Of a stretch of DNA of 64,000 bases, positions 10,954 through 52,306 are shown piece after piece (position 1 is the first letter of the stretch; the number at the start of each line of letters is the position of its first letter). Location: positions 86,056,001-86,120,000 of the forward strand of contig CM097884.1 in assembly GCA_044892505.1 (NCBI GenBank). Reading direction: 5' to 3'. The translations under genes and the position numbers were made by a program. The notes under the pieces were generated by a model that was not told the DNA's origin, ran no database searches, and saw nothing but the letters and a program-made list of their open reading frames with translations. The DNA comes from Schmidtea nova. Lineage: Eukaryota.

Positions 10954-12348
10954 TGTTGGGTGGTATGGGTGTTGCTACAAAAATTATTACCAACTTCTAG
11001 GAGTTAATACAACCCACACCGCAACATAAATATTACTCCGTCACACACGTGTACCAATAGTTATTCCCAGTGGCGTAACTTCATATTTTGGGCCCCCCTG
11101 CGAACTTATTCCCCAAATAACTATGTTGATACTGTACACGGTGGTGAGAATCTAGTGAGCAGGTGAGCTCCGTTGCCGAAACTACTCCTCACTAAATTCT
11201 CTCTTTCGGGTTCTTGCTGCCCATAGAAGGTCTTACGCATCTGCTTTCCTTTCGGTCCTACCGCATAATTACATCTCAATTATCCATTACTTTCCGCTAT
11301 CAACAATCTACCTTTATTCATTCTCAACTAATTAACCAAAACGATGAATACTCATTGCAATCCCATTTTCTTCCGTCCAAATTTGGTTCAAGTACGCTGC
11401 ATCGCCTAACCCTCCGAAGAGAGTTAGGGCGAGAGGCCATATACCAGCCATCGGGTCACGAGATTATCAGGACGTGCCCTTATCGATTTTACCACGGCTG
11501 TTATGAGGGTTTACCCGCAATTAACCATAAAATGTATGATTCAAAATATTTATTGACTACCATTCACATGACATGATTAAATACGATGTACATTACAACT
11601 ATCATACACCAAGCAAACTAACTCACCTACACGACTGGCTGGCGAAATTGAAATTAATATTTGTGCTAGCTCCAAACTAATTGAATTGAATTCAACTAAT
11701 TTTTTGCTTCTATTTATACTAAATAGACTGACACTCATGCATTTACCATTATATTATGATTGCAACTCAATTTATTTGTTTCAATTAACGATTATTTATT
11801 TAATTTTTTGTAAATTTTATTTTATAATTTTTTATTTTTAAAATATTTGTCTTTAATTCCGTTAAATGATGTGTGTGTCCATTGTTTTTGTACATTTATT
11901 GATTGATTAAAACAATCAAATTTAATTTAGTTCTATTTTTGTTTCTACCTCTGTTATTTTCCCGATATATCAATGGGGATTTTTCCTATACTTTTTAATA
12001 AATTATTTTCTTTATTCTGATATCAATTTTATTCTTTGATCATGCTTTGCTTTATCTTTATACAAGCAATGATCTTCCCCATTAAATTCTCGTGTGGTTC
12101 TTCGTGTGTAAATGTGACCTGCACTCAAATTTTATGTTCTCTTTTGAGATGTCTCTTTTCTATCGTTTAAGCCCTATCTCGACCGACTTGTCGAATGCGG
12201 TTCGTATGATTACCATTGTACTTTACTGTTTTATATTCTTTTGCTTTAGTTTACTACGTAATGCTTTATCGTGTGTTTTTAAACTTGTTCCTTTTTAATT
12301 TTTGATGAATTTAAACAAAGTTTTATTTACGATTTCGCCAGCCCAACA
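10954..12348 (-). mobile_element. Solo-LTR-like element, copy A (short, no long ORF on the sense strand)
   Basis: Ends TGTTGGG..CCCAACA; 4-bp TSD TTAT; shares the TATA (11711-11718), the conserved RNA motif (11157-11238) and the terminal hairpin with copies B-D. Confidence 0.8.
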
Positions 12349-21549: not shown

Positions 21550-22848
21550 CGTGGTGCGTTCAATAAGTACCCGACCAAAGGTAAAAAAATGTAATGACAA
21601 ATTTTAGTTTTTTTGTGTAAATAAATAAATAAATATAGGTTTTGATTTCAGTTATTGTTTTATTTTATCAAACGCATTAAAATTTTTATTGTGACATTTT
21701 GATTTTTCGTCGGTGTAATGATTTCAGACGTTGAGTATCGCAGCGTTATCAAGTTCTTTGTGTTGCAGAAGAAGACGTGCAGTGAAATCTACGATCTTTT
21801 GCAGTCAACTTACCTACATGACTCCCCATCTCTGACAATTGTTAAATATTGGGTCAGAGAGTTTAAAGGTGGTCGCACCTCTGTTTTTGATCAAGAAAAA
21901 TCAGGTCGGCCACAAGAAATCTTTGACACAGTTGATGAAAAATTGGAGAAGATTGTCCAAGAAGAGCGTCGAATCACCATGAAAATGCTGTCAACGAAGC
22001 TCAACATCAGTGTTGGTACAGCCCACGCCAAATTGAAATACATGGGTATCAGAAAACTGTGCTCCAGATTCGTACCCCGCTTCTTGACTGGTGAAATGAT
22101 GCGAAACCGCTTGGAGGGCAGTCAGAACAACTTGAACCTGTGGGACCAGCATGGTGAGACTTTCCTGGCAAATTTAATAACGGAGGATGAAACCCCACTC
22201 AGTATGTATTTGCCGGAAACAAAGCGTGAGTCAGCAGAGTGGAAACTGCCTGGAGAGAAGCCATTTTTGAAGATGCGAACGGAGACAAGTCATGGGCGAG
22301 CGATGATGCTTTCCATTTTCTGGGATCATAAAGGTGTTATTCTCATTGATTTCGCGGATAAAGGCATCACCATCAACGCTGCCTATTACAGCCAACTCGT
22401 GTCAACCGCCAGAAAGAATAGACGGAAGCAGAAGAATACGCCACTATGGTTTCTCCACGACAAAGCGCCAGTGCACACAGTGGGCGTTTCTCGGGCCACA
22501 ATTGAAGGTGCTGGATTAGTGCTTGTGGATCATCAGCCGTACAGCCCAGATTTGGCACCAAGCGATTTTTACCTCTTTAGACACCTAAAGAAGCATTTGA
22601 GAGGCACCCAGTTTGGATCCAAAGACGATTTGAAGGATGCCATGGAGGATTTCTTCAATGCATGTCCCCGAGATTTCTTCAAAAATGCGTTTTCTGAGTT
22701 GATTATTCGTTGGCGGAAGTGTGTGGAGCGAAATGGACATTATGTTGAAAAATGATGCCTACATACGTTAAGCTTGTTGTGTTATAAAAATGGCCCATTT
22801 TGGAATTCGTTTTCTTCGTCAGGTCGGGTACTTATTGAACACACTACG
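21550..22848 (+). mobile_element. Full-length mariner DNA transposon (1299 bp)
   Basis: 27-bp TIRs CGTGGTGCGTTCAATAAGTACCCGACC (2 mismatches) and TA TSDs. Confidence 0.97.
21718..22755 (+). CDS. Mariner transposase (DD34D), 345 aa, uninterrupted
   Basis: HTH N-terminus, FVPRFL (WVPHEL-like), TEDET, HDKA, HQPYSPDLAPSDF with 34 residues between the second and third catalytic Asp. Confidence 0.95.
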   Translation: MISDVEYRSVIKFFVLQKKTCSEIYDLLQSTYLHDSPSLTIVKYWVREFKGGRTSVFDQEKSGRPQEIFDTVDEKLEKIVQEERRITMKMLSTKLNISVGTAHAKLKYMGIRKLCSRFVPRFLTGEMMRNRLEGSQNNLNLWDQHGETFLANLITEDETPLSMYLPETKRESAEWKLPGEKPFLKMRTETSHGRAMMLSIFWDHKGVILIDFADKGITINAAYYSQLVSTARKNRRKQKNTPLWFLHDKAPVHTVGVSRATIEGAGLVLVDHQPYSPDLAPSDFYLFRHLKKHLRGTQFGSKDDLKDAMEDFFNACPRDFFKNAFSELIIRWRKCVERNGHYVEK

Positions 22849-25848: not shown

Positions 25849-25902
<54 letters not shown>

Positions 25903-26319
25903 TAGGTTCATGGATGGACCAAAACAATCAACACGTAACTAGGATAGGGATATACGATCCATGAACATACATAAATGTTCGCAACTTCCACACGTGCGCC
26001 CTTAACTATTTCCTTATGTAGTTAAGTTGGTGATGCGCAAGGTGGTTGAAAAATGATGGGCAGGTGAACTCTACTGCTAGAACTACTCCCCATTTATTTT
26101 CGCGGGTTAACGCTGCCGTTAGAGGTCTTATGCTATCGTCCATAGTTTAATTTAATAAATTTCACGTGTAAAGATCCTCAATCGATTAATTCTACTAGCT
26201 TAACTACACTTTGCTAATTCTTTCCAGGTTTAATTTAATTCAGCTACGTTAAAGTTAACGAAAATCAATGTGAACAACAACATCAAAACTCCGATACACC
26301 TTCACGAATACTTTATTAT

Positions 26320-26911
26320 TTACAAAAACTCCTTAAAGGTTCCTTCCATAGGAAAAACGTCTGCTAATAAATCGATGTCGTTCAGATTCATCAGGTGATC
26401 GATTTGCGCCTGTAGTTGCTGTGCAAACAACTTCTTTCGCCGCCTACGTTTCGATTGCATCCTCTTTCTCTTCCTTACTCCACCTGTGGAGCTTATTACT
26501 TTTGGAGGTTCTGCTGGACTTGACGCTATCGTGAAACTTAGGCCTTCTACATCAGTTCCAACTGAACAAGTCGTTTTCTTTCCGTCACCCAGTTATAATA
26601 TGTTATAGGTCGAATTTGAGACTGCAACTCTTTTTCGATAAAAGGAGTTGTCACTGAGTGGAGGCACTTTCTCAGTTCAATTTTGGTGGCCTCCCACTCT
26701 ACTTTATAATCATCCGCTGTCCGCTGTGCCCGTTCGGTCCGGGTTATCTGTTCTTTCATCCGGGCTGGCACAAACCAGCTCTTCCTTAAATACTGTATTT
26801 GGGCTTTGGCCTTTGCCAGTTTAGCCTTTAATTGTTCTAGCTCCATCCTTGAGCCCGTCTAATCCTCCACATTTTATCGAGTTCTTTTTGTTGGCTTGTT
26901 TCCTGGTTCAT
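26320..26911 (-). pseudogene. LTR-encoded coiled-coil/basic/acidic protein, copy B
   Basis: MNQETSQQKELDKMWRI/ MELEQLKAKL..SWFVP..EATKIELRKCL..IRPITY/ ..RKRKRMQSKRRRRKK..DIDLLADVF; two 1-nt frameshifts relative to copies C and D. Confidence 0.75.
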
Positions 26912-27003
26912 ACTGAAGGTACTTTAATTAATGGTTATTTATAGAAGTTTTTATTTGGTATTAATGAACATTCTATTTTATGGAATGGAAGAAATTAGAT
27001 TAA

Positions 27004-27573
27004 TCAATAAACTAAAACCAAAATTCGAAATGAAAATTTATTAGATGCTATGAGACACAAATAATTCGTTCGATTATTATACTTGCCGAAGAAATAAGCT
27101 ACATGGAGCCCTTGATGTATGGGTGTACGGTGTATATTGTCCAGTGAGAACTCCGGTTGACTGATCTCGTATTCCTTTCCGAAGGGCCGGGGTGAGGTGA
27201 AAAGTTGAAATCCCAATCTTGCAAGCTCCCCTTGCGGGATATGCCCCCAGTAAATGACTTTTGATGGTTTTTGATCGGGACCATTTATTAAAATTAGGAG
27301 TCGCCCGAATTTCGGCGAATAAAATTGCTCAGAATCCGGCAATCCCGGGCATCCTTGATACATTACTTGGTCCCGCCCAGTGTCCCATATAGTAAATAAA
27401 CATCTTTCACCGAACTCTCTTCTCCATTTGAACATTTGGACGTTGATTGTGCGCAGGATCGAGTGCGGCAAGGCCTTTAGTCCCATCTGAGATATCATGG
27501 TGGTCGCAGCAACGACAGGATCCGACGACCTTCTATGTGCGCATATAAATTGTTCTATTGTAGTTGATTCCAT
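27004..27573 (-). CDS. Orphan 189-aa ORF inside LTR copy B
   Basis: Uninterrupted, GC-richer than its flanks, sense to the LTR promoter; no recognisable domain. Confidence 0.55.
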   Translation of the reverse strand: MESTTIEQFICAHRRSSDPVVAATTMISQMGLKALPHSILRTINVQMFKWRREFGERCLFTIWDTGRDQVMYQGCPGLPDSEQFYSPKFGRLLILINGPDQKPSKVIYWGHIPQGELARLGFQLFTSPRPFGKEYEISQPEFSLDNIHRTPIHQGLHVAYFFGKYNNRTNYLCLIASNKFSFRILVLVY

Positions 27574-29360
27574 CTATATTATCGTATGAAATACTGGTGA
27601 ATCAAATATTTGATTTAATTGCAAAAATCCCTAATTTATGAGACGAGAAAAATTGGTATAGTAAGTTAATCCGCAGAGATGAAGTTAGACCTGCATTATG
27701 GACAGGTTATACACGTTGAGAAGAAAAATTGACCGTGTTCAACTTATTTAATTAACACTGTCGTGATATACCACGATCAGAATAAATTCTATCTATAATT
27801 TTATGTTCCCTGCGCTATCTACAGGGTTATAAATTTGATCGGCTTGATTTCCTTCGCTATTTACAGCGATCAGGATAAATATGTTTATATCACTACGGAT
27901 CGTCAATGTCCGATTAATCAGGGTTCGAAACTATCCGTGTATCGGACTTTGTATCTGCTGCTAAAAATTTAAGTAATAAGTGTGTCTAATCTACTAAATC
28001 GGAATTTTATCTGAATCTAGTTTAGATTGTTTATACCTAAATTGTCTATCTCTACATCTGTGGTTGTTCATTATCGATCGCATTTAAAATTTGGTAAGAG
28101 CGATTAAATTCGGATGGTTTTGATTTATTCCGATTCACCTCTGTTATGCGGACGCTAGTTAGGTAGGTAACGCAATAATAAAATCGATGTGGTTGACATT
28201 TACTACCTAAAAGAATCGTCTCTGCCTACTAGCCAAATCTCCACTTAAATGAAAAAATTACCGGTTAGCATGTGTCCCAAAATCCGTTAATTACACTCCT
28301 TCCTACTCGCTTATGATCTTTTAATTTGAGTGGTTTATGTATCGATTTTGTGTTATTATATTTACTTAGTTAAATAGTCTATGCGATGCCGTCCCTCGGT
28401 AGTACAAAAATAAAATTAAATTCTTGATAGTAGCTTAATCACCTTGGTAAAAATTTATGCCAATCGCCTACTTTTTGTGTCAGAAACGTTATACCTTGTT
28501 CCTAATTGCAACTCTACGTTATTTATGAAAAGTCTCCCTCAAACACTTTGTGAATAGCATTTATTTTTCTAACGCCCTTTGCCGAGATCGTTCCAATGTG
28601 CAACTCAGAAATTTTCGAAAAATCTCACTTTCATAAAAAAAAACTTACTCACCACCTCGTGGAGCTACGGAGCCCCTTGACGAAATCTGGCTCCCTCGCA
28701 GCGTTAGCTACAGAGGAAACATATCTATAAGTTATAAATGCATGAATGAATAAAATAGCATGAATTAAATATAATATATATTAAATACAACAATAACAAA
28801 ATCATGGCAACATTACAATATTAATTACATCATTATTACCTCTACGTTGAAATGATTAGATTTTCTCGAACAAATTACAAGTTATAAGGCTCAAAAACCG
28901 TTAAATCGTTCTGAGTCTCAAAATGAAAATAGTGCTAAAAAAAGTGTTATTTTGTGATCTTCGGATCGGTATTTATACTGATCAAGCTGGTCAGATTGAC
29001 CAATCAGTATCAGACCACCCTTCAAAGTAAATCAATCATTTTTAATTTATCTAAATCATATTTTGTTTCCGTTTTAGGTTTCTCGTTGAGTGGTCCTAAT
29101 TTTTCAAGTAATTATTTAGTTGGACTTTTATTTTGGTTAATTTATTCATAATTTTCCATTTTTCTATTTCAGTTTCCTTGTTGGTCACTTTGTTGCGTAA
29201 TTCGAATTATTTTTCTACTTGTAAGTTATTTACTGTTGTTTTAACTATTTATTTTTATTCTTTTCTTTAGATTTTCTTGGTTTTGGTAACATTATTTTGA
29301 TTATTTTTTCTTTTAATTGTTGTGTTGTTTTATGTATTTTTAAGCTATTTAGTGGGCCCA

Positions 29361-29440
<80 letters not shown>

Positions 29441-32054
29441 TGATGAGCTGTAGCCGGTTTGCACCGGTTCTATAGAACCGGTTGTTAAATATTTTGTAGT
29501 TTATAGAACCTTTGTTAATTAGGAATCAACAAATTAATTTTGTTGATACCTAATTAATAGTTGATACTATATTTAAAAACAACAAATAAATTTAAAATTT
29601 AAATATTTTCACTGCAAAGTTGGCGTTGAGATTTCTTTCACTAAAAAAGTTATTATGTGTGTATTAGCAAACATTATTTTCTTTTTTTTATTAAAGTTTA
29701 GAAGTGATAATTTTGTGCTGCTTAAAAAACTATTTTTTACAAAAAATAAAATAAATTTTAACAGAAAAACAAGAATCCATTTATCTTATTTATAAACAAT
29801 TATTAATATATTGTGAGTATATTTATATTTTCTACTTTATATCCTAAATAAGCCCATTCTTTTAGGAAATAAAATTTAATGAAACGCAAAACTAATATTC
29901 GTGATTATTTTAATAATAATAAAAAAACAATGAAGAAGAAGAGGAAAATATTTCAAATACTGTAACTCTAAGCGTAAGCCAGGAATCAGCAACAGTATCT
30001 TGCTCTAAAATTTTACCAGCCAATATCTAAAAAGAGAATAATTTTCCAGATTGCTGGAATGGTGACAAATTAAAGATATTTCAAGCTCAATATAATGGCT
30101 TGGAGGTCAAAAATAAAAAGCTTGGATGTCTAAAATGCTCCTCGTTCGATAATTTGGGTATTTGTAAAGAACAAAACATTCACATTCCACAACAATGGCA
30201 AAATTTTGAAATTCAACCATCGGGAACAACAAAAGTTATTCAACAGGCTTCATTAAGAAAATAAATGTCTGAACATTTTAAATCAAAAACACATTTAATG
30301 GTTTTAAAAATGCTTGAACAAAAAGAAAAAAATGAACTACCCAGAATCATCTATTCAAATAATGCCAAAAATATGGCTAGTACTAATAAAATATTCAATA
30401 TTAATTACAGCTTAATAAAAAGAAATAGACCGCTTTCAGATTTGGAAGCAGAAGTTGAACTTCAGGTTAAAAATGGGGTAGATCTTGGAATTTCGCTTCA
30501 TTCTAGGTTTAGTGCAATTAGAATAGCAGAACACATAGCAAAACAAATGAAAAAATAATTGTTGAAAAAATAATTGCATCCAATTCAAAAATTTGCGTAA
30601 TCATAGATGAAGCCTCAATTATATCAAGCAAATCGGTGCTAGTCATTTTTTTGAAGTTTGAAATGGAAAAAGAAAATTCAATATTTTTTTTGGACTTAGT
30701 TCATTTAGAATCTCAAACCGCTGAGCATATTTTTAATATTCTAATGCAAACACTAAACTCAAATGGCTTTTCCACGGATTTTTTGAAAGAAAATCTTATT
30801 GGTTTTTGTTCTGATGGTGCAAGTACAATGCTTGGTCAAAAGTCAGGTGTTGTTACAAGGTTAATAAAAGAATTTCCTTATGTAATAGTTTGGCATTGCT
30901 TAAACATCGTCTTCAGCTGGTTTTGGATGACGCAATAGACGAAATAAAGCAAGTAAATCATTTTAAATCATTTATCAATAAAATTTATGTAATTTTTCTT
31001 CAATCAAATAAAAATCAATTGCGCTTACAAAATATATCGCGAGATTTGGAAGTGGAAATAATTAAAATAGGCGAGTCTTAGGCCCAAGATGGGCAGCATG
31101 CAGCTTAAGATCTGATATGGCTGTTTGACGGGCTTATGTACCACTTTTCAAATTTCTTAAGGATGATTCCAAATATCTTGGTATGGCAAACCGACTTGCG
31201 AATAAATATTTTATAAAGGATTTAGCACTTATGATCGATATTCTTCATGAGATGTCCTATTTGTCAATAGGATTACAAGCTAGGTTTGTTACCCTTCAAA
31301 AGGCAACGAAACTGATAAAAAGAACTATAAATATTATGATAAATTTGAAAGAAAATTTAGGAACATTTGAAAAAAAAGTTGAAGAAATGTTGTCGTCACC
31401 TGCATTTGCAGATATTCTTTTTGTGGAAAATAAAAAATTTGAAAGTCTCCCAAGAAAAAAACTTATTGAAACAATAATTGATAAAATGAATTCCCGAATG
31501 TTAAATTGTAGACATATGTTGTGGCTTTGGATGGGTTAAAACCAAAGATAGATAAACGCTCTAGGGATGCCTCCATCCAAGCCTAAACATAAAATGCTTT
31601 CACGACACACGAGCACCCTCGACTATTTCCCTGGATAATCGAGCTGGAAATGTGCAAGGTGTTTGAACAATGATGGGCAGGTGAGCTCTATTTCTAAAAC
31701 TACTCCCTATTTATGTTCACGGGTCCATTGCTGCCGATAGAAGGACTTACGCTTTACTTTCTTTTTAATTTATCCGAATTCATTGTCTTTCATTTTAGTT
31801 TTCTGCCCCCTTCTTTACAATATCAACAGATGATTTGAATAATTATATATATATATCTTTACTTTAATGTTCCTATTGTTTATCCTTTATCGAATTGTGT
31901 TAGCATCTTTGCCAATTATAATTTGTATTTGATATTTTAATTTAAAATTTTAATAACTACTTTATTTCAACAATAAAATAAGCACAAAACTAAAATATAA
32001 TAAAACTAAAATTTTATACACAACAGTAATATTAATAAATTATTTTCGACCATT

Positions 32055-32668
32055 TCATTCGAAATATTTGAGGAAATCATCGTCAACTGCCGCAAAATCT
32101 GTGGTTAAGTCTATTTCCGGAAATTCATCATTATGTTGAATCATTTGTTCCACAAATTGTTTTTTCCATCTGCGTTGCCTTGCACCCATCTTGTTTTTCT
32201 TTTTCTTTTTGATCTCGATGGTTGATACACTTTTCGATGCGGCTTGATTTTCCATTGCGCGAACCTGCGATGGTTCTTCTGTATTAGTACCTTTTGTGCA
32301 TTCAGCCTTCTCTTCTGACCAATGTTGATAAGTGATTGGTCGTATTAGTTGCTTCAATTACTGTTGATAAATGAGGTGGTGACTGCCTTGAGGCATTTTC
32401 TCAACTAAATCTTGGTTGCCTCGAGTTCCATTCTGAATTCATCATTCGATCGCTGAGAACGTTGGTTTTTCAGGAGTTGAGTTTTCATTTGGTCGGGGTT
32501 GAACCAACTGGTTCGGAATTGCGATATTGTAGCTTCTGCTGTTTTCAATTTTTCCTTTGTTCGGCCGATTTCCTTTTCCAGGCTGCGAATAATTCGCCAA
32601 GCCTTGTCTAATTCATTTTGTAGGTTCATTGAATTTCCTGTCATTTTCTGAAAATCAATGAGTGTCAT
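32055..32668 (-). pseudogene. LTR-encoded coiled-coil/basic/acidic protein, copy C
   Basis: ORFs 32405-32668 and 32055-32357 join through one stop (GAG>TAG) and one frameshift when aligned to copies B and D. Confidence 0.8.
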
Positions 32669-33758
32669 TAGTTAAAATTTCAGCTAGTTTGAATTATATT
32701 AACCGATTCTGTTTTATACTTTCCTCGGAAGGATTCGTTGAGTTTTCTTTTATTTTAAACTAAGGAGTGAAATAAATACATTCTATAATGTCAACACTGT
32801 CGCTATGTACAGCGATCAGATAAGTTTGGTTACAATATTTAATTACCCGTACCTGTGCTATCTACAGCAATCAGGTTGATAATTTACGAAAATGTTAAAG
32901 AAAAATAAGTTCTTCTGCCCTATGTACAGGGATCAGGATAACAAATTAACGTTTATTATTGTTTGGTCTGGAATAAGAATTAGATCAATTCTAATCGATT
33001 GTTTTTTGTTTGTGTGGTAGTTCAGCTACCCACCTGAATTCTTGCATTATGGTTATCGACCCTGAGTTATAAAATTTCATTCTAAATTTATATTCTAAAT
33101 GGTATTCAAAAATTTGAACGATGATGCTGGCCACTTCATACAACAAACCCTAGATGCACGATCTCGCAAAGAAACACGGTATTACTCTGAATACTTCCCT
33201 GATGAATGTTAAGTTTAAATGTTAATTTATCATCATAAAAAAATACTGAATGATAAAATTGAAATAAAGCTGGCTGTACTGCTCAGCGATAAATAAAAAT
33301 CCTACCCTCTTCGTGGCACTTAATACCAGGCAGTCCGCCTAACTGCAAGAAGTAGTTAAATCTACTCGGCACACTCTGCCTCCTTCCACCGATTTCACGA
33401 TGGACAGGAGCGCCCTTGTTTCATAAATATAAAATAATTCATTTCGCCTCCTTCCACCGATTACACAGTGGACAGGAGCGCAAGTGACTCATAAATAATA
33501 ATTAAAAAATCAATTCAATAAATTTGCCTCCTTCCATCGATTACACAGTGGAAGGAGCGCGCTTCTCATAAAAATAAATAACAAAAATTATCATAAATAT
33601 TTAATTCAAGACAGAAATTATGATAGAAAAATTATAAACATATGAAATCACAACATAAATCATACATACCTAGTAGCTGTTGATCAAAATTTTGCGAAAA
33701 TCAAAAATTTCTAGTGACAAAAATCATATACCATTAAATTTGTCTGAATCTGAATCAG

Positions 33759-33792
33759 TATTTATACTGATCAGATTAGCTCATCAACCAAT
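33759..33792 (-). promoter_or_regulatory. LTR promoter: TATAAATA with upstream CCAAT box
   Basis: TATTTATA on + at 33759-33766, 46545-46552, 28970-28977 and 11711-11718; CCAATCAG about 25 bp further out in B and C. Confidence 0.7.
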
Positions 33793-34768
33793 CAGCGTGA
33801 AGCTGATGATCAAAATATATAATTCTATTAAAAATAATCAATTTAATTTTTTGTTTGAATTAACTGTAATTTTATTAATTTTATTATTATGTAATTTTAA
33901 CTCTTTTTCTTAATTACTTATTTATTTAAATTGTTAACCATTTTATTACATTTAAATCTCATTTTCTTATTACTTTTTACATCCTAATTTTGTTTTTTAT
34001 AACTTTTATAATATCATTTATTTCTTTTCTATTTCTTTTAATTCTTTTTAATGGAATTTCTTTCCAATACATAAATTTTCCTAATTCTTATTTATTTTCT
34101 TATTATTATTACTTATATATTTAAATGTTAGTCAAATGGTGGACCCAACACATATAAGAATGACAAAAAATGAAAAAAATAACGACATTGCCGAATTATT
34201 TAATTTACTTGAAGCTGATTGGAATTTGGAAGAAATTACTTGTCCGTGGATTTTGGGAGAAGAAAAATTGAAATGAAATAATTAGATAAGAAATTCCCAT
34301 TAATGATTTCAGAGATTATGTTCAAAATGTAATTGAAGGAAAAACCTCTGAAATAGAAACAATTCAAAAAGCTAAAAATAAAATTAACACCATTGCTATA
34401 AGTTCATCAGAGGCCGAACGAGGATTCTCAATAATGAATATTATTTGTGAAAAAAAAGAGCTTATCTTTCAGTAGAACATATTCCTAGTTTAATGAGTAT
34501 TAATATGATTGGACCACCACTTGAATCATGGAATTCTGGAGAATATGTCAAAACTTGGTTGAGGAATCATAATTCAGCTGATGATACCAGGATTCGAAAT
34601 GCGCCAAAAAATATTAATGAAAATAATAAAATCAATTGGAAATTATTATAATAATTTAAAAAAAAAATAAAAAAAATCTATTTAAATAAAATGATATTTT
34701 ATTAAAATAAAACGATTTTTAGTTTTTGGTTTTATAGAACCGGTTGTAAAATGTTTGGCAGCTCATCA

Positions 34769-35952: not shown

Positions 35953-38250
35953 GGGCATTCCAAAATATAGATCATTTTTTTGGGTTTATTTGAAAAATAG
36001 AACATTTTATTTTATTTGAAATATAGAACGTTTTACAAACAATCATTTTAATCATCGCTCGCACAAAAAGCGAACTCTAAATGCATGAAGCGAAACACCA
36101 AAAAAAAGAATACATTAATTTTCGAAAAGTGTAGGCATCCTTCGTATTTTTGGTCTTCCACGAGCTCTTCTAGCAATTGGTGGCAGAATATTAGATCGTG
36201 TTAGGTTGTTCGATGATAATGGCATAATATTTCTTGTAAACTGGGTATAATACGTCTCTGTCAGGTAAGCTCTCGAGACAAAACCAATATGATCAATGTG
36301 ATTATTTCTTAGCACGCAGCAGATATGCTCGCAAGGTATTCCCAGATCATTTCTGGCATTACAATCGCAAGACTTGTTAACAAGATTTACCACATGTTTG
36401 TTGTCAACCAAATATATTGTTGAAGAAGAAGCAGAAAAGTTTAAAAGCCTACCTTGAAGGATATTCTTATTAAGAATTTTAAGACAAGGATCTACAACAT
36501 TACCTTGGAATCTTCGTTGTTGCCTTTCATTAAAAACCTTCATTGCATAATTGTTAATTGAAATGATTAAAGATGTTATATCTTGGGATATAAATTTCTT
36601 AAATGCTGACTTGGCAGATTCCACGGGATTGTTGGTGTTTTTCCCAAACCTTGGGATTGGAAACATAGAATTGGCCCATTTATCAAAACCTATTTCAAGT
36701 AATCGTAGATAAAAAGGCTCGTTTCGCGCCCGTAACTGAATCATCAAATCATCAAACTCCTCCACAGAGAATGTATTAGCTGCTCGCCAATAAAAACTCA
36801 TTGCAATATTATCCCGAAAGGAATATTTTAGGTTTTTTTGCAATGTGTCTAATGCAAAATGCTTTAGAAGCTAGCGGGACTATTCTGTCGGGGCATTTAT
36901 AATACCCTTCTCCCTATCCGATATCAAAACTGTACTTACATGATTAATATTCATGTTTGAATTTATTTGTTCAATAAACCAATTCCAACTGTCAGAATTT
37001 TCACTTTCGACTATTGCCACGGAAATAAACACTAATTAATCCCAACTCTCTTGTGAAACTGCAACCAAAAGAGTACCTTTATTAGGTCCTGCCAGAAAAG
37101 TCCCATCCGTATATAGCAGTTTTCTTGATCTACCGAAAAATTCTTTAGATGCATTCCACATGATAAAAAAGCGCCTAAATGCACCGTTTTGATCTGACAA
37201 ATAGCTCGTGAAATCACCATTTGATATAATTTTTTCGATTAGGGATGGGATCAACTCATATGACCTTTCAATAATCATTCCTGCAGTCTTCTTGGCAACC
37301 TTGATTGCTGACCATGCTGTATTGTACGGGATGTCACATTGATATTCTGTTCTCATTATACCAATCACATATTTTGGACTTATAATTTCCAAATTGGTGT
37401 TTTTAAGCACTTTTCTTGGAATGCATGGATTTCTACGGTTACCTATGGGTTGGGTGAAGTATGATAAGGATGCATTTTTTTAATTATGCATTTAGACTTA
37501 GCCACAACATATCTTGCATTTACCAGAAATCCACAGTCAAACTCTTGTATACTGTCAAAATGTGACAGCATACAAGTGTTTGACAATATGTTCTCAATGG
37601 CAGCCTTGGAAAAAGGAATCAGCTTTATGGTGAAACAACGCAATCACAAGTCAATTTTGCTTAGATGCAAAGAGAATGGCTGTGGATTTCTGGTAAATGC
37701 AAGATATGTTGTGGCTAAGTCTAAATGCATAATTAAAAAAATGCATCCTTATCATACTTCACCCAACCCATAGGTAACCGTAGAAATCCATGCATCCACG
37801 CATCGCTAAGAACTCTTAAGCTATGCCAATTTCATTGATGTTTCGATTATTGTTTTCCATGGCTTCAACGTAATAACAAAACTTTTGTTAAATTTTTACC
37901 TTTGGGGAAACGGTTTATTTTCAAATTGGGAAATTGAAATATTTCATATGAAATTTAAATAATAGTTTGAAATGGTTTATTCAAAAAATACATTATAAAA
38001 TAAAACAAAATAAATAAAACAAATTTTCCTATTTTTCAAATAAAATAAAAAGTGTTCTATTTTTCAAAGTAAACAAAAAAGTGTTCTATTTTTCAAATAA
38101 ACGCAAAAAAATGTTCCATTTTTCAAATAAAATAAAAAAGTGTTCTATTTTTCAAATAAACGCAAAAAAATGTTCCATTTTTCAAATAAAATAAAAAAGT
38201 GTTCTATTTTTCAAATAAACGCAAAAAAATGTTTTATTTTTCAAATTTTC
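35953..38250 (-). mobile_element. Mutator-like (MULE) transposon remnant
   Basis: WRKY-like finger CKENGC..HPYH, DGTFL catalytic motif, LISDREKG-type region, SWIM finger CDCNARNDLGIPCEH; left end GGGCATTCC matches inverted subrepeats at 38030-38240. Confidence 0.85.
38030..38245. repeat. MULE subterminal tandem repeats (~26-28 bp)
   Basis: Repeats of AAAAGTGTTCTATTTTTCAAATAAA(C/A). Confidence 0.85.
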
Positions 38251-44165: not shown

Positions 44166-46925
44166 TGTTGGGTGCCATGGATGGGTTAAAACAAAAGATA
44201 AACGCTCTAGGGATGCCTCTATCCATGACCAAACATGAAATGTATTCGTGACACACAAGCACCCTCGATTATTTCCCTGGGTAATCGAGTTGGAAATGTG
44301 CAAGGTGTTTGAACAATGATAAGCAGGTGAGCTCTATTACTAGAACTATTCCCCATTTATGTTCACGGGTTCGTCGCTGCCGATAGAAGGACTTACGCTT
44401 TACTTTATCTGGATTGATTATATTTCCTTTTATTATTCCTGCCCCCTTCTTACAGTATCAACAGTTAATTTGAATCATTTATATGTTAGATCTTAACGTT
44501 TATCATTTGTCAAATTTCATTAATACTTTTGTATACATAATTTTGTATTTAATTACTTTATATTAAAATTTTTGAATAAACTTTATTTTCCATTACTCTA
44601 CCGTATTATGGTTTAACCAAAAAAAAAATAATGATAAATTAAACTACATTTCTATTTAAAATAACAACAGAATTCATTAGGCAGTTAAGAACGCGAAGAA
44701 ATCTTCGTCTGTTGATGCAAAATCTGTTGAAAGATCTATTTCTGGCAGTTCATCGGAATGACTAATTAAGTGTTGCATAACTTGTTTCCTCCACCTTCTT
44801 TGTCTGGCTCCCATTTTATATTTACTTTTCTTTTTGTTCTCGATGATGGTTGGTGAGACGTTTGGTGCGGTTGTAGTCTTTATTTCAAGAACCTGCAACG
44901 GTCCTTCCGTATTTGTTCCTTTTGAACACCCTGCTATCTCCTCTGACCAATGTTGATATGTAATTGGTCGGATCAACTGTTTTAGCTCACGGTCTATGAA
45001 CGATGTGGTGATTACCTTGAGGCATTTCCTTTACTCGATTTTTGTTGCCTCGAGCTCTGTTCTGTATTTTTCTCCTGCTCTCTGCGACCGTTGATTCTTC
45101 ATGATTTGAATCTTCATTTGTTCGGGAGTGAACCAGCTTTTATTACGGTGTGCGTTTAGCGCTTCTGCTGCCTTCAGTTTCTCTTTGGTTTGATTTAGTT
45201 CCTTTTCGAGGCTGCGAACGATTCGCCAAGCCTTATCCAACTCAGTAGAGGAAGTTATTGGATTTGTTCCCATTATTCTAAAAATCGATTACGATTATTG
45301 ATATACTTCCAGTTTTGTAGATAATGATGAAAATTTGTGTTTAAGGTTCTTTATGATTTAACGAGAATAGTTCTTACGGACTCCATGTCATTTTTTAAAT
45401 GATGATTTCATTTAAGTTGATATAATTTTTATTTTAAATGGGAGAATGAAGAGAATCCGCTATGCAGTTCAACACTGTCGCTATGTACAGCGATCAGGAT
45501 AACCATATAATTTATAAAATTTTAGCTCTGCTGCCCTATCTACAGGGATAAGAATACTGAATATATTTATATTTGAATTATTCTGTCGTCTATTTGCTTA
45601 TACTTTAGCTATTTACACCAAATCGGATGATCACTACAATATGTAGCCTACGTTGATTTATTATGTATACGCCAACCTGTTACCAAATCCAAGAGAAAAA
45701 AACAATCTCAATTGCAATAACGCTAATCTGGAATTATCGATCATTATGTTTTGGCAATTTAAGAAAATTCTGGTCAATCTACAATCCTACATGAATCTAC
45801 ATAAATTTTAAACTAGTTGTCAAAGAAGATGATAATCAAAGTAATGCGACCTCTCTAGATCCTGGACAATATTTATCAGCTACAGTTTTCTCTACTTGTT
45901 GGTAGTCAAAAATTTATAGTTGGAAATTTCATTCTTTGATTTTTATCAATTCGTTGTATGGAAATCAACATTATCCTCGTGCGCCAAATTCCGGATGCAC
46001 AATCTCTACTCATGATCGGTTTAAAAACAAATTTCTTTTGCCCAAAGTTCAGGTAATAAAATAAATTTCGAGTATCAAATTTCACTGTTAAAATTATTGG
46101 TTAATAAAAATATACCCATCAGCTGTACTGGTTGGGGTTGCTATCATAAAAATTCAATTCTAAAGTACTCTACCGTCTTCATGACATTTAATACCATGAA
46201 GATGGCCTAACTTCACGGAGTAGTTAATCCACTCAGGCGAAGTCTGCCTCCTTCCACCGATTACACGGTAGAAAGAAGCTCCCTTTAATCATTAATATAA
46301 TAAAATACTTCATTTCGCCTCCTTCCACCGATTACACAGTGGAAGGAGCCCAATCTGACAACATTAACATGAGTGTAAAATAAAATATTTCTTTTTAAAT
46401 TTATTAAAATTTCAAAAATCATGATAACATATAATCATAACAATTTAAAATCAAACAATGCTCATACTTGCTAAGCTATCAGTCTTCAATAAAGAAAATT
46501 TTCTGACAAAAATTCATAAGTTAAATTGTCTGATTCTGGTTCAGTATTTATACTGAACCGATCAGCACACCGATCAATCAGCGTCAAGCTGATGGTCGTA
46601 AAACCAAATTATTTATAAATCAAACAATTTAATTTTTTGTTTAAATTGATCATAATTTTATTAATTATTTTCTTAATTAATTATTTATTTTAATTGATAA
46701 ATATTTCATTACATTTCTTAATCATTAATTCTCATTTTTCTTACATTTATATATTATTTTTATGTCTTTTTATTATTTTTATTATACCATTTATTTCTGG
46801 TCTTATTATTTCAATTCATTCCATTTAAATCTCTTCTTATAGTATGTGTTTTACTATGGTTATTTTTATTATATTTATTATTATTATTTATTTATTCAAA
46901 TGATGGTCAAGTGGTGGACCCAACA
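44166..46925 (-). mobile_element. Solo-LTR-like element, copy D (2760 bp)
   Basis: TGTTGGG..CCCAACA ends; TSD TTTT; inserted in a Polinton ORF (LIKYNF|KEIENL rejoins). Confidence 0.9.
44677..45273 (-). pseudogene. LTR-encoded coiled-coil/basic/acidic protein, copy D
   Basis: ORFs 45031-45273 and 44677-44976 are in one frame separated by a single TAA (EATKIE*RKCLKVITTSFIDRELKQLIRPITY). Confidence 0.85.
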
Positions 46926-51181: not shown

Positions 51182-52306
51182 CCCTGGTCTACCAAAAGTC
51201 TCCATTCTGGCACCTATTTACATATTGCAATTTATAATGAACAACAATGGGAACAAATGTAACAAATACACACGAATACTGAATGTCTATAGTGCTGAGA
51301 GAGTTAGTACTTTGTTATATTACCTTTCATCTGGATAACAAGGTGCACTCGTTTAAACATTTTATCGACAACCTTTGCCTGGAAATAAGGGGAGATGTGT
51401 GACCATTCCTCATGCAGATGCGTTTCTAGTTCGGAGGTGTTACGGGCAATGGAAATCATTTTGCGAACTCCTCTACCAAGACGTCCCACAAAAACTCATT
51501 AAAATTCAGATCAGGGCTTTGTGGAACACAATCCAAAACGTTGATGCTGTGCTGCAGAAAGAATTCCTTCATAATGTGCGAAGTATGGATTGGTGCATTA
51601 CCATGTTGGTAAATGAGCCCCTCAATTTCTGGGAGAAAGGGAACAAGCTCATTTTCCAGAATGGCACGGTATTCCACTGACATCATGTGATTGACGCACT
51701 TCACTAGAGGACCAGTTCTACAAACTGAGAAAAGACTCCAAAACATGACGGAGCCTCCTCCAAATTTTACAGTTGGCTGAATGCAGTCAAGGTGAAATCG
51801 TTCTCCTACACGACGCCAGAAGAATTGCTGTCCATCCGATTTGAAAAGAGTGAAACGTGATTCATCACTCAAAATGACTGAGCGCCTGAATGTTGGTTGT
51901 TGACATGTATTTGATCTTGGTGGTATTTTCTCAGGAAGTAGTTAATAGTTCTTTTGGGATGGTCAGTCAATGCAGCAGTTTCACTCTGACTTTTTACACA
52001 AAAGTATAATCCTAAAAGATTGCCTTTCTGAACGTCTGTAAGCTCTCTCCGAGTAGTCATATTCTAAAAAAGTGACAATCCTTCATTAAAATGACTCACT
52101 GTTATCACTGTTGTGTCTCTGGTGTGAGTATTCATATTCTGTGTGTGTGTGAGTGCGTGCGTGCGTAATTGTGCGCATGAAGCATGTTGAAGGTGTTGGT
52201 GACCATTGTTCTCATTGCTGTTCATATTTGCACTGCAGATGTTCATTATAAACTGCAATATGTAAATAACTGCCTTACTGGAGACTTTTGGTAGGCCTGA
52301 GTAGGG
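51182..52306 (-). mobile_element. Degenerate Tc1-like transposon
   Basis: ~65-bp TIRs (..CTACCAAAAGTCTCCA..TATTTACATATTGCA), TA flanks; HTH, SDESRF, VKFGGGSVMFW, QHGNAPIHT and SPDLNFNE motifs; frameshifted. Confidence 0.88.

What the first reader, a model, noticed from the sequence alone, without database searches (positions are those of the whole stretch)
26320..26911. LTR-encoded ~200-aa protein with coiled coil, arginine-rich motif and acidic tail (Tat/Rev/Tas-like architecture)
Seen: the ORF track shows fragments, but aligning copies B (26320-26911), C (32055-32668) and D (44677-45273) gives one protein. It has ELDKxWRI, a heptad-like region, SWFxPxxMKxQ, EATKIELRKCL..IRPITY..W, a basic patch (KKKKNKMGARQRRWKKQ; RKRKRMQSKRRRRKK) and an acidic-hydrophobic end (EIDLTTDFAAVDDDFLKYF). 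Motifs persist across strongly diverged DNA, and the gene is sense to the LTR promoter and ahead of AAUAAA. Known: LTR-resident ORFs and ARM/acidic regulators are features of complex retroviruses (Nef, Sag, Tat, Rev, Tas), not typical Gypsy LTRs. Inference: with the hairpin arrays upstream, this may be a self-contained protein-RNA regulatory circuit in a retrotransposon LTR, and it is the best candidate novel system here.
Basis: partly seen in the sequence, partly recalled or inferred. Interest (0 to 1): 0.85.

Follow-up and report, generated by a model that had tools for sequence, protein, structure and literature searches.

The report
Gene inside giant retrotransposon's end repeats
The long end-repeats of a giant Burro-like jumping gene carry a strongly conserved small protein gene with no relative found in the databases searched, and its product likely works as an RNA-binding regulator of the element's own transcripts, somewhat as Rev does for HIV, although neither expression nor binding has been shown.

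Summary
The ORF is real. Window copies B, C and D are broken genes in solo LTRs, but open 185-200-codon copies lie in both LTRs of young 29-kb Burro-like Gypsy elements, sense to gag-env-pol. Four LTR lineages (about 26-47% protein identity where measured) keep it under strong purifying selection (median pairwise dN/dS 0.09-0.13); the basic patch is the most constrained part in the three lineages tested by region. It is not a gag/pol/env fragment and has no significant homolog. The acidic tail is weak in one lineage and absent in another, which weakens the Tat/Tas reading; the upstream hairpin arrays are lineage-specific. Best reading (0.4): a predicted coiled-coil dimer, made from a spliced LTR mRNA, that binds the element's RNA and favours unspliced, full-length RNA (works like Rev/CERV, not a member). 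No RNA data could test expression. The scan noted this two-gene LTR before on other DNA of this genome; the primary Burro paper was not available.

The parts
25900..29363 (-). Solo LTR B (lineage I, 3464 bp, TG...CA) between (TA)n tracts
   Evidence: both ends match the paired LTRs of young elements
26320..26911 (-). ORF-B, the finding; broken copy (two frameshifts); open relatives 196-199 aa
26912..26925 (-). Predicted splice acceptor (YAG one base before the ORF-B ATG)
   Evidence: not confirmed by RNA
27004..27573 (-).
   Evidence: median pairwise dN/dS 0.21 and 0.19 in lineages I and III
28647..28655 (-). Predicted splice donor (GTG|GTGAGT), 328 bases after the TATA motif
   Evidence: ATG|GTGAGC at TATA+325 to +354 in 21 of 21 lineage I copies
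28970..28980 (-). TATA motif CAGTATAAATA after CCAAT-like boxes; inferred promoter about 380 bases into the LTR
   Evidence: start site not measured
26056..26093 (-). Covarying hairpin, mostly with a GNRA-type loop, with an invariant UCACCUG stretch; in all four ORF-bearing lineages and in the ORF-less LTR A
27745..27880 (-). Upstream GTACAT/GTAGAT-loop hairpins inside the predicted intron (lineages I and II)
31517..34150 (-). Solo LTR C (lineage II, no ORF-A), target duplication TATG
32055..32641 (-). ORF-B copy C, broken (one stop, one frameshift)
44166..46925 (-). Solo LTR D (lineage II), target duplication AAAA
44677..45273 (-). ORF-B copy D, broken (one in-frame stop)
10954..12348 (-). 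Short related solo LTR (1395 bp, target duplication ATAA) with TATA motif, donor and 3' hairpin but no ORF-A or ORF-B match

Best explanation
This is a conserved protein-coding gene (ORF-B) inside the roughly 3-kb LTR of giant Burro-like Gypsy elements, likely translated from a spliced LTR transcript into a predicted coiled-coil dimer whose basic patch likely binds the element's own RNA and would favour export of unspliced full-length RNA, as Rev or CERV do. Shown: location, strand, open copies, purifying selection, splice signals in the DNA, constraint on the basic patch. Predicted: helices 3-43, 48-98 and 104-111, a disordered linker, a basic helix, and an in-register parallel dimer of the N-terminal half. 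Inferred: transcription starts near LTR base 410; a donor about 330 bases after the TATA motif joins to acceptors sitting directly before the ORF-A and ORF-B start codons; a poly(A) signal follows ORF-B. The genomic RNA would then have to keep these introns and pass the 5' LTR's poly(A) signal, which creates the need for a post-transcriptional switch. Coding status about 0.97; this mechanism about 0.4.
For: Paired LTRs 99.6-99.95% identical with 4-bp target duplications in 3 of 3 elements fetched. PBS is an exact complement of a host tRNA-Pro(TGG) 3' end. Internal zinc knuckle, fusion glycoprotein, protease, RT, RNase H, integrase, ankyrin and TRAF/MATH domains. Median pairwise dN/dS 0.12, 0.12, 0.13, 0.09 in lineages I-IV (usable pairs 211 of 300, 108 of 153, 38 of 45, 4 of 10); branch-wise 0.06-0.15; no antisense frame open in any of 80 frames. 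Basic patch pN/pS 0.11, 0.04, 0.06 against linker 0.58, 0.42, 0.47. YAG within 0-3 bases of the ATG in 77 of 80 open ORF-A/B frames against 141 of 1116 for all ATGs in 20 LTR loci, true starts included; 7-38 upstream ATGs lie between TATA motif and start codon, so an unspliced RNA would translate these ORFs poorly. Three internal 3' ORFs also have an AG 2-3 bases before their ATG. Homodimer model score 0.55 against best control 0.20, runs agreeing in at least 93% of contacts, pLDDT at least 82; the mark was reached by 21 of 30 microbial and 7 of 16 animal solved homodimers and by 0 of 23 and 0 of 30 single chains. Precedent in a Gypsy-type element: CERV, from a spliced mRNA, needed for genomic RNA export (PMC10309623).
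Against: No RNA evidence: no RNA run was listed and contigs of four runs of unknown kind showed no joint at the predicted splice sites among the 15 joints displayed (12 more hidden). A leucine-rich export-signal pattern is in the tail of only 3 of 25, 1 of 18, 10 of 10 and 0 of 5 copies of lineages I-IV, although Rev-like proteins typically need one (PMC10746203). A basic patch can be a nuclear or nucleolar localisation signal only. Pfam REV matches are below the cut-off and were seen in lineage III only. The best-conserved RNA hairpin also occurs in an ORF-less LTR, so it does not track with the gene. The single-chain model has pTM 0.27. The frames used for dN/dS were top search hits selected for being open, which biases the ratio downward.
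Confidence: 0.4

Rival explanations
1. ORF-B is a transcriptional transactivator of the LTR (Tat-, Tas- or bZIP-like): a dimer whose basic helix binds LTR DNA or a 5' RNA hairpin and whose acidic tail activates.
For: Predicted parallel dimer, basic helix, acidic amphipathic tail in lineages I and II. The basic patch recalls a bZIP basic region in lineages II and III (N-x7-R spacing; motif recalled, alignment). Stable hairpins lie within about 300 bases after the TATA motif.
Against: Tail nearly neutral in lineage III and absent in IV. The bZIP asparagine is missing in lineage I and out of register in IV; no zipper follows; no bZIP family is among the 25 Pfam families shown for 30 members or in the per-protein tables. 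Promoter-proximal hairpins differ in sequence between lineages.
Confidence: 0.2
2. ORF-B, with ORF-A, is an anti-silencing factor expressed early from any LTR, including solo LTRs, that binds double-stranded or small RNA or a silencing protein.
For: Burro elements are PIWI-silenced in planarians (PMC8532177 passages). Each LTR holds promoter motif, intron, ORFs and, in lineages II-IV, AATAAA. Helical dimers with basic faces occur among viral silencing suppressors (recalled).
Against: No structural match to a known suppressor (best ORF-A Z 3.0 from a low-confidence model). Strong uniform constraint fits a fixed partner better than an arms race.
Confidence: 0.15
3. ORF-B is a particle or replication helper (RNA chaperone for the unusually long strong-stop transfer, or nuclear import of the cDNA).
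For: If transcription starts near LTR base 410, about 2.6 kb separate the start from the PBS, far longer than in typical LTR elements (recalled). Basic patch and dimer fit nucleic-acid chaperoning or import.
Against: A zinc-knuckle Gag is already encoded; expression from a separate spliced mRNA is more typical of regulators (recalled).
Confidence: 0.1
4. ORF-B is host-directed cargo (Nef/Sag-like in role) acting on cell signalling or survival, like the element's TRAF, RING and ankyrin cargo.
For: The element carries several host-interfering modules (PMC6431247 section 7).
Against: No host-like domain; the most constrained part is a nucleic-acid-binding or nuclear-targeting type patch.
Confidence: 0.12
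5. The frame is non-coding, or a stray gag/env fragment kept open by chance.
For: All three window copies are broken; no database homolog; no expression data.
Against: dN/dS about 0.1 in four lineages; no match of the profile to the internal ORFs of the elements held (2710 pieces); conserved acceptor-ATG junction.
Confidence: 0.03

Closest known systems
Burro / GYPSM1 giant Gypsy-like elements of planarians (PMC6431247, section 7 read in full; Grohme 2018 and Jurka 2007 not seen)
   Same: About 29 kb, multi-kb LTRs, thousands of candidate copies, env-like fusion glycoprotein between gag and protease, ankyrin and TRAF/MATH cargo, accessory ORFs.
   Different: The text read mentions no ORFs inside the LTRs (its figure was not seen). 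Here TRAF/MATH is a separate ORF 3' of pol; BIR and BCL2 were not detected at Pfam E 0.001.
CERV of C. elegans Cer1 (PMC10309623; abstract, sections 9 and 15 read)
   Same: Accessory protein of an LTR retrotransposon from a spliced mRNA, with helical dimerisation region and basic nuclear signal; needed for export of unspliced genomic RNA.
   Different: CERV is 517 aa, shares exons with gag, has a cysteine loop and a G-protein-like domain, and lies in the internal region. ORF-B is 140-199 aa and wholly inside the LTR; its function is untested.
Rev / Rex / Rec / Rem of complex retroviruses (PMC10746203, passages)
   Same: Small, predicted spliced-mRNA product with arginine-rich patch and predicted oligomerisation region; element with many splice acceptors.
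   Different: No significant sequence or fold similarity; leucine-rich export pattern not conserved; no response element identified.
LTR-overlapping genes Nef, MMTV Sag, foamy Tas/Bet (recalled, no call)
   Same: Protein gene in or overlapping an LTR, reached by splicing.
   Different: Those lie in or before U3, upstream of the TATA box, and are read from the 3' end of the provirus. ORF-A and ORF-B lie downstream of the TATA motif (inferred R/U5), so each LTR, solo LTRs too, would hold a whole transcription unit.

Membership tests
Burro-like giant Gypsy | Giant LTR element (about 25 kb internal, about 30 kb total) with multi-kb LTRs | tested here: met
   29.2-kb element, 3.0-kb LTRs, TG..CA, 4-bp target duplication, tRNA-Pro PBS; shown for lineage I only
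Burro-like giant Gypsy | Env-like fusion glycoprotein between gag and protease, then RT-RNase H-integrase | tested here: met
   Pfam zf-CCHC, Monjiviricetes_fusion, RVP, RVT_1, RT_RNaseH, rve in this order
Burro-like giant Gypsy | Ankyrin, MATH/TRAF, BIR, BCL2-like cargo | tested here: inconclusive
   Ankyrin, TRAF/MATH and a RING found; BIR and BCL2 not seen at E 0.001
Burro-like giant Gypsy | Sequence or RT-tree placement with Burro1-4 | not testable with these tools
   No Burro reference sequence was available
Rev-like export adaptors | Made from a fully spliced mRNA | tested here: inconclusive
   Donor and acceptor signals conserved; no RNA confirmation
Rev-like export adaptors | Arginine-rich RNA-binding / nuclear localisation patch | tested here: met
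   Present in all four lineages; most constrained segment in I-III; binding itself untested
Rev-like export adaptors | Oligomerisation domain | tested here: inconclusive
   Predicted homodimer, score 0.55 against best control 0.20; a model, not a measurement
Rev-like export adaptors | Conserved leucine-rich nuclear export signal | tested here: not met
   Class-1 pattern (recalled) in the tail of 3 of 25, 1 of 18, 10 of 10, 0 of 5 copies; atypical signals not excluded
Rev-like export adaptors | Sequence homology to Rev (PF00424 above cut-off) | tested here: not met
   6 of 30 members matched below cut-off, best E 0.0085, 16.5 bits against 22, on inconsistent segments; a genome search with the family found no ORF-B copy among its 2 candidates
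Rev-like export adaptors | Binds a response element and exports unspliced RNA | not testable with these tools
   Needs CLIP and fractionation
Tat / Tas transactivators | Conserved activation region (Tas acidic domain; Tat cysteine-rich core; recalled) | tested here: not met
   Tail charge -5, -7.5, -2, +6 in lineages I-IV; no cysteine cluster in the alignments
Tat / Tas transactivators | Activates LTR transcription through TAR-like RNA or a DNA element | not testable with these tools
   Needs reporter or nascent-RNA assays
bZIP factors | N-x7-R basic region followed by a leucine zipper (recalled) | tested here: not met
   Spacing present in II and III only, at most one heptad follows, coiled coil is N-terminal; no bZIP family shown in Pfam scans
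U3-resident genes (Nef, Sag) | ORF upstream of the LTR TATA box (recalled) | tested here: not met
   ORFs lie 0.8-2.1 kb downstream of the conserved TATA motif; start site inferred, not measured

The most novel reading that the evidence does not exclude
Each LTR of these giant Gypsy elements, including thousands of solo LTRs, is a self-contained, alternatively spliced two-gene unit. Its ORF-B product is an independently evolved Rev-like switch that binds a structured RNA in the same LTR and decides between short LTR mRNAs and full-length genomic RNA, so scattered solo LTRs could supply the regulator in trans.
Probability: 0.25. Interest if true: 0.85.

Novelty: new variant of a known kind. Interest (0 to 1): 0.6.

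Why it matters
Accessory regulators are a hallmark of complex retroviruses; among the papers found here, one (CERV) is shown for an LTR retrotransposon. Two selected genes lying downstream of the promoter motif inside the LTR, kept across four deeply diverged lineages, would be a different architecture: solo LTRs, usually regarded as dead remnants, would remain potential protein-coding units in thousands of copies. It gives a directly testable handle (junction reads, RNAi, CLIP) on how a 29-kb element with many splice acceptors protects its full-length RNA, in an animal group (likely planarians, inferred from the likeness to Burro) where such elements are PIWI targets.

Tried and rejected
Homolog searches gave nothing significant: single protein and 30-sequence alignment against 5.8 billion proteins, near lengths only; profile against 1.84 billion representatives, 3 weak hits (E 3e-5 to 5e-4) over about 40 residues, the one inspected being a repetitive chemoreceptor-like protein by eye; Pfam; PDB sequences; ESM Atlas best 0.86, a lead only; Foldseek viral and PDB, none at E 0.001. 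ORF-A model was poor (pLDDT 48), best Z 3.0; the Atlas gave no answer for ORF-A. These blanks show neither novelty nor a new fold. Expression: no RNA holder listed; four runs of unknown kind, contigs only, covered all 30 bins and showed no predicted junction among the displayed joints: uninformative. Rfam: only (TA)n microRNA look-alikes in 5 loci. IQ-TREE codon omega could not be read out; the 0.44 mean ratio for lineage I is an artefact of saturated pairs dropped from dS only and is replaced. An LC8-type motif (SVQTE, recalled) occurs in lineage III only: dropped. An HDV-like ribozyme fold for the 3' element was tried by eye and dropped (no P1 partner, no catalytic linker seen). Five lineage II regions fetched showed no complete lineage II element, so the link to gag-pol is shown for lineage I only. 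Paper searches for ORFs inside Gypsy or Burro LTRs found no description; Grohme 2018 was not held, and its figures and supplements, or Repbase entries, may already annotate these ORFs.

Full report
Observation. The motifs and coordinates are correct. Copies B, C and D are broken by frameshifts or stops and lie in solo LTRs of 3464, 2634 and 2760 bp with TG..CA ends; C and D have 4-bp target duplications and B lies between (TA)n tracts. A search of the host genome G000 with part of copy B gave 8362 first-look candidates, of which 150 were scored. Many hits came in pairs about 26 kb apart with frames open for about 200 codons.

Host element. Three such pairs were fetched in pieces. Their LTRs are 3.0 kb and 99.6-99.95% identical, with target duplications GGAT, TCAT and TACA. 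The primer site is an exact complement of a host tRNA-Pro(TGG). The internal region encodes zinc knuckle, fusion glycoprotein, protease, RT, RNase H, integrase, ankyrin repeats and TRAF/MATH. This matches the Burro description, including env between gag and protease (PMC6431247 section 7, read in full). The host is likely a planarian, by inference only. ORF-B is inside both LTRs, on the gag-pol strand. Profiles of ORF-A and ORF-B matched no internal ORF among 2710 translated pieces.

Four lineages. Lineage I (copy B and the young elements) has ORF-A then ORF-B. Lineage II (C, D) has ORF-B only, about 47% identical to I. Lineage III has both genes, ORF-B about 26% identical to I and II. Lineage IV has both, with a 137-144-aa ORF-B that lacks the first helix and the tail. 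Invariant in a 14-sequence, four-lineage alignment: M1, F46, E71, E78, T87, L95, W107; a basic patch is present in all. The link to gag-pol is shown for lineage I only; for II-IV it rests on shared LTR motifs.

Selection. Distinct natural open frames were taken from loci L001-L148 (25, 18 and 10 for ORF-B; 21 and 6 for ORF-A; broken and duplicate frames dropped), plus 5 lineage IV frames picked by eye from 19 loci. Median pairwise dN/dS was 0.12, 0.12, 0.13 and 0.09 for ORF-B and 0.21 and 0.19 for ORF-A, with saturated pairs left out. Fitted to trees, terminal branches gave 0.10-0.15 and internal branches 0.06-0.12 for ORF-B. Other frames gave 0.9-2.0, except the antisense frame sharing wobble positions (0.19-0.28), and no antisense frame is open in any copy. 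By region, the basic patch is most constrained (pN/pS 0.11, 0.04, 0.06), then the helical core (0.13-0.15); the linker is least (0.42-0.58). Choosing open top hits biases these values down but is unlikely to produce an eight-fold deficit.

Expression signals. A CAGTATAAATA motif after CCAAT-like boxes lies about 380 bases into the LTR in window copy B and the young elements, and is also present in lineages II and III and the ORF-less LTR A. A YAG lies 0-3 bases before the start codon in 77 of 80 frames (background 141 of 1116); in the 5 lineage IV frames an AG lies 6-7 bases before it. A donor ATG|GTGAGC is at TATA+325 to +354 in 21 of 21 lineage I copies; donors were found in 6 of 8 lineage II copies that could be scanned, at varying places. 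AATAAA within 250 bases of the last codon: 9 of 25, 17 of 18, 10 of 10, 5 of 5 (shuffles 6.9, 12.0, 3.1, 1.6; copies are not independent). None of this is confirmed by RNA.

Protein. AlphaFold2 gives confident helices 3-43, 48-98 and 104-111, a disordered linker 113-147 and a basic helix 151-175, with no reliable overall arrangement (pLDDT 73, pTM 0.27). Residues 1-112 are modelled as an in-register parallel dimer: score 0.55, best control 0.20, runs agreeing in at least 93% of contacts, pLDDT at least 82. The mark was reached by 21 of 30 microbial and 7 of 16 animal solved homodimers and by 0 of 23 and 0 of 30 single chains. No significant homolog or fold match was found. Pfam REV was matched by 6 of 30 members, below cut-off, on inconsistent segments, seen in lineage III: not homology. 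The acidic tail is strong in I and II, weak in III and absent in IV; a leucine-rich export pattern is general only in III.

RNA elements. The CTTCCAC type is in C and D, and B has different ones. The GTACAT-loop type shows swapped stem pairs (first pair intact in 81 of 92 instances, G-C 56 and C-G 19) and was seen in lineages I and II, not in III or in the parts of IV held. The element shared by all lineages is a hairpin downstream of ORF-B with clear covariation; it also occurs in the ORF-less LTR, so it need not be an ORF-B target.

Mechanism. Full-length RNA must then keep several introns and pass a 5' poly(A) signal. A spliced-mRNA product with a dimerising coil and a highly constrained basic patch fits a post-transcriptional adaptor. 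Precedent: CERV (PMC10309623; abstract and sections 9, 15 read) and Rev-like proteins (PMC10746203, passages). I put this at 0.4, a transactivator at 0.2, anti-silencing at 0.15 (PIWI control of Burro: PMC8532177, passages), host-directed cargo at 0.12, a particle helper at 0.1 and non-coding at 0.03. It may work like Rev; it fails the membership tests for Rev, Tat/Tas, bZIP and U3 genes.

Novelty. Burro elements are known. Six paper searches found no description of genes inside their LTRs, but the primary paper was not held and Fig. 2A of PMC6431247, which draws ORFs, was not seen; PMC11410931 (passages) adds nothing on LTR ORFs. This scan noted the same two-gene LTR earlier on other DNA of this genome (e1-9374290, e1-9379941), after I had reached it here; that is not independent support. 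Verdict: new variant of a known kind, interest 0.6.

Noticed in passing
window 26056-26093, 31660-31700, 44305-44345, 11145-11195 (minus strand); alignment A4: Hairpin about 160-200 bases from the LTR 3' end, shared by all lineages: 96.4% of 336 cells paired, 9 of 14 pairs with changes on both sides, covariation 0.551 against 0.179 shuffled and at most 0.126 slid (structure derived from these sequences, 24 rows picked by hand). No Rfam match.
   Followed up: yes
window 26062-26068 (minus strand) and equivalents: The invariant UCACCUG in that hairpin is complementary to the element's own donor-like GGUGAG sites and resembles the U1 snRNA 5' end (recalled); it also reads as a donor on the antisense strand and as an E-box in DNA. 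Unexplained.
   Followed up: no
window 26103-26111 (minus strand); L034 LTR positions about 2800 and 3000: The near-invariant GAACCCG is complementary to the T-arm of the primer tRNA-Pro (8 bases): a possible primer-activation-like signal; chance level not assessed.
   Followed up: partly
window 10954-12348: A 1.4-kb relative of these LTRs keeps promoter motif, donor and 3' hairpin but neither ORF.
   Followed up: partly
window 25850-25900 and 29363-29437: Solo LTR B sits inside a (TA)n microsatellite.
   Followed up: no
L075:2568-6830: A lineage II LTR is inserted into a lineage III LTR; these LTRs nest in one another.
   Followed up: partly
G000:C1:590830830-590964950: Five equally scoring LTR-gene copies spaced about 33 kb apart: a tandem array of giant elements or an assembly repeat.
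   Followed up: no
L170 (G000:C1:459.61-459.66 Mb): Long tandem array of tRNA-Pro(TGG) genes with a 308-base period; 1106 matches to the pattern genome-wide.
   Followed up: no
L034:3658-4158: A 167-aa coiled-coil plus RING ORF lies between the PBS and gag.
   Followed up: no
window 21703-22755, 29438-31527, 36115-37773, 51357-51941: Neighbouring DNA-transposon remains judged by eye: a mariner-like transposase open for 350 codons, a hAT-like element interrupted by LTR C, a Mutator-like and a Tc1-like fragment.
   Followed up: no
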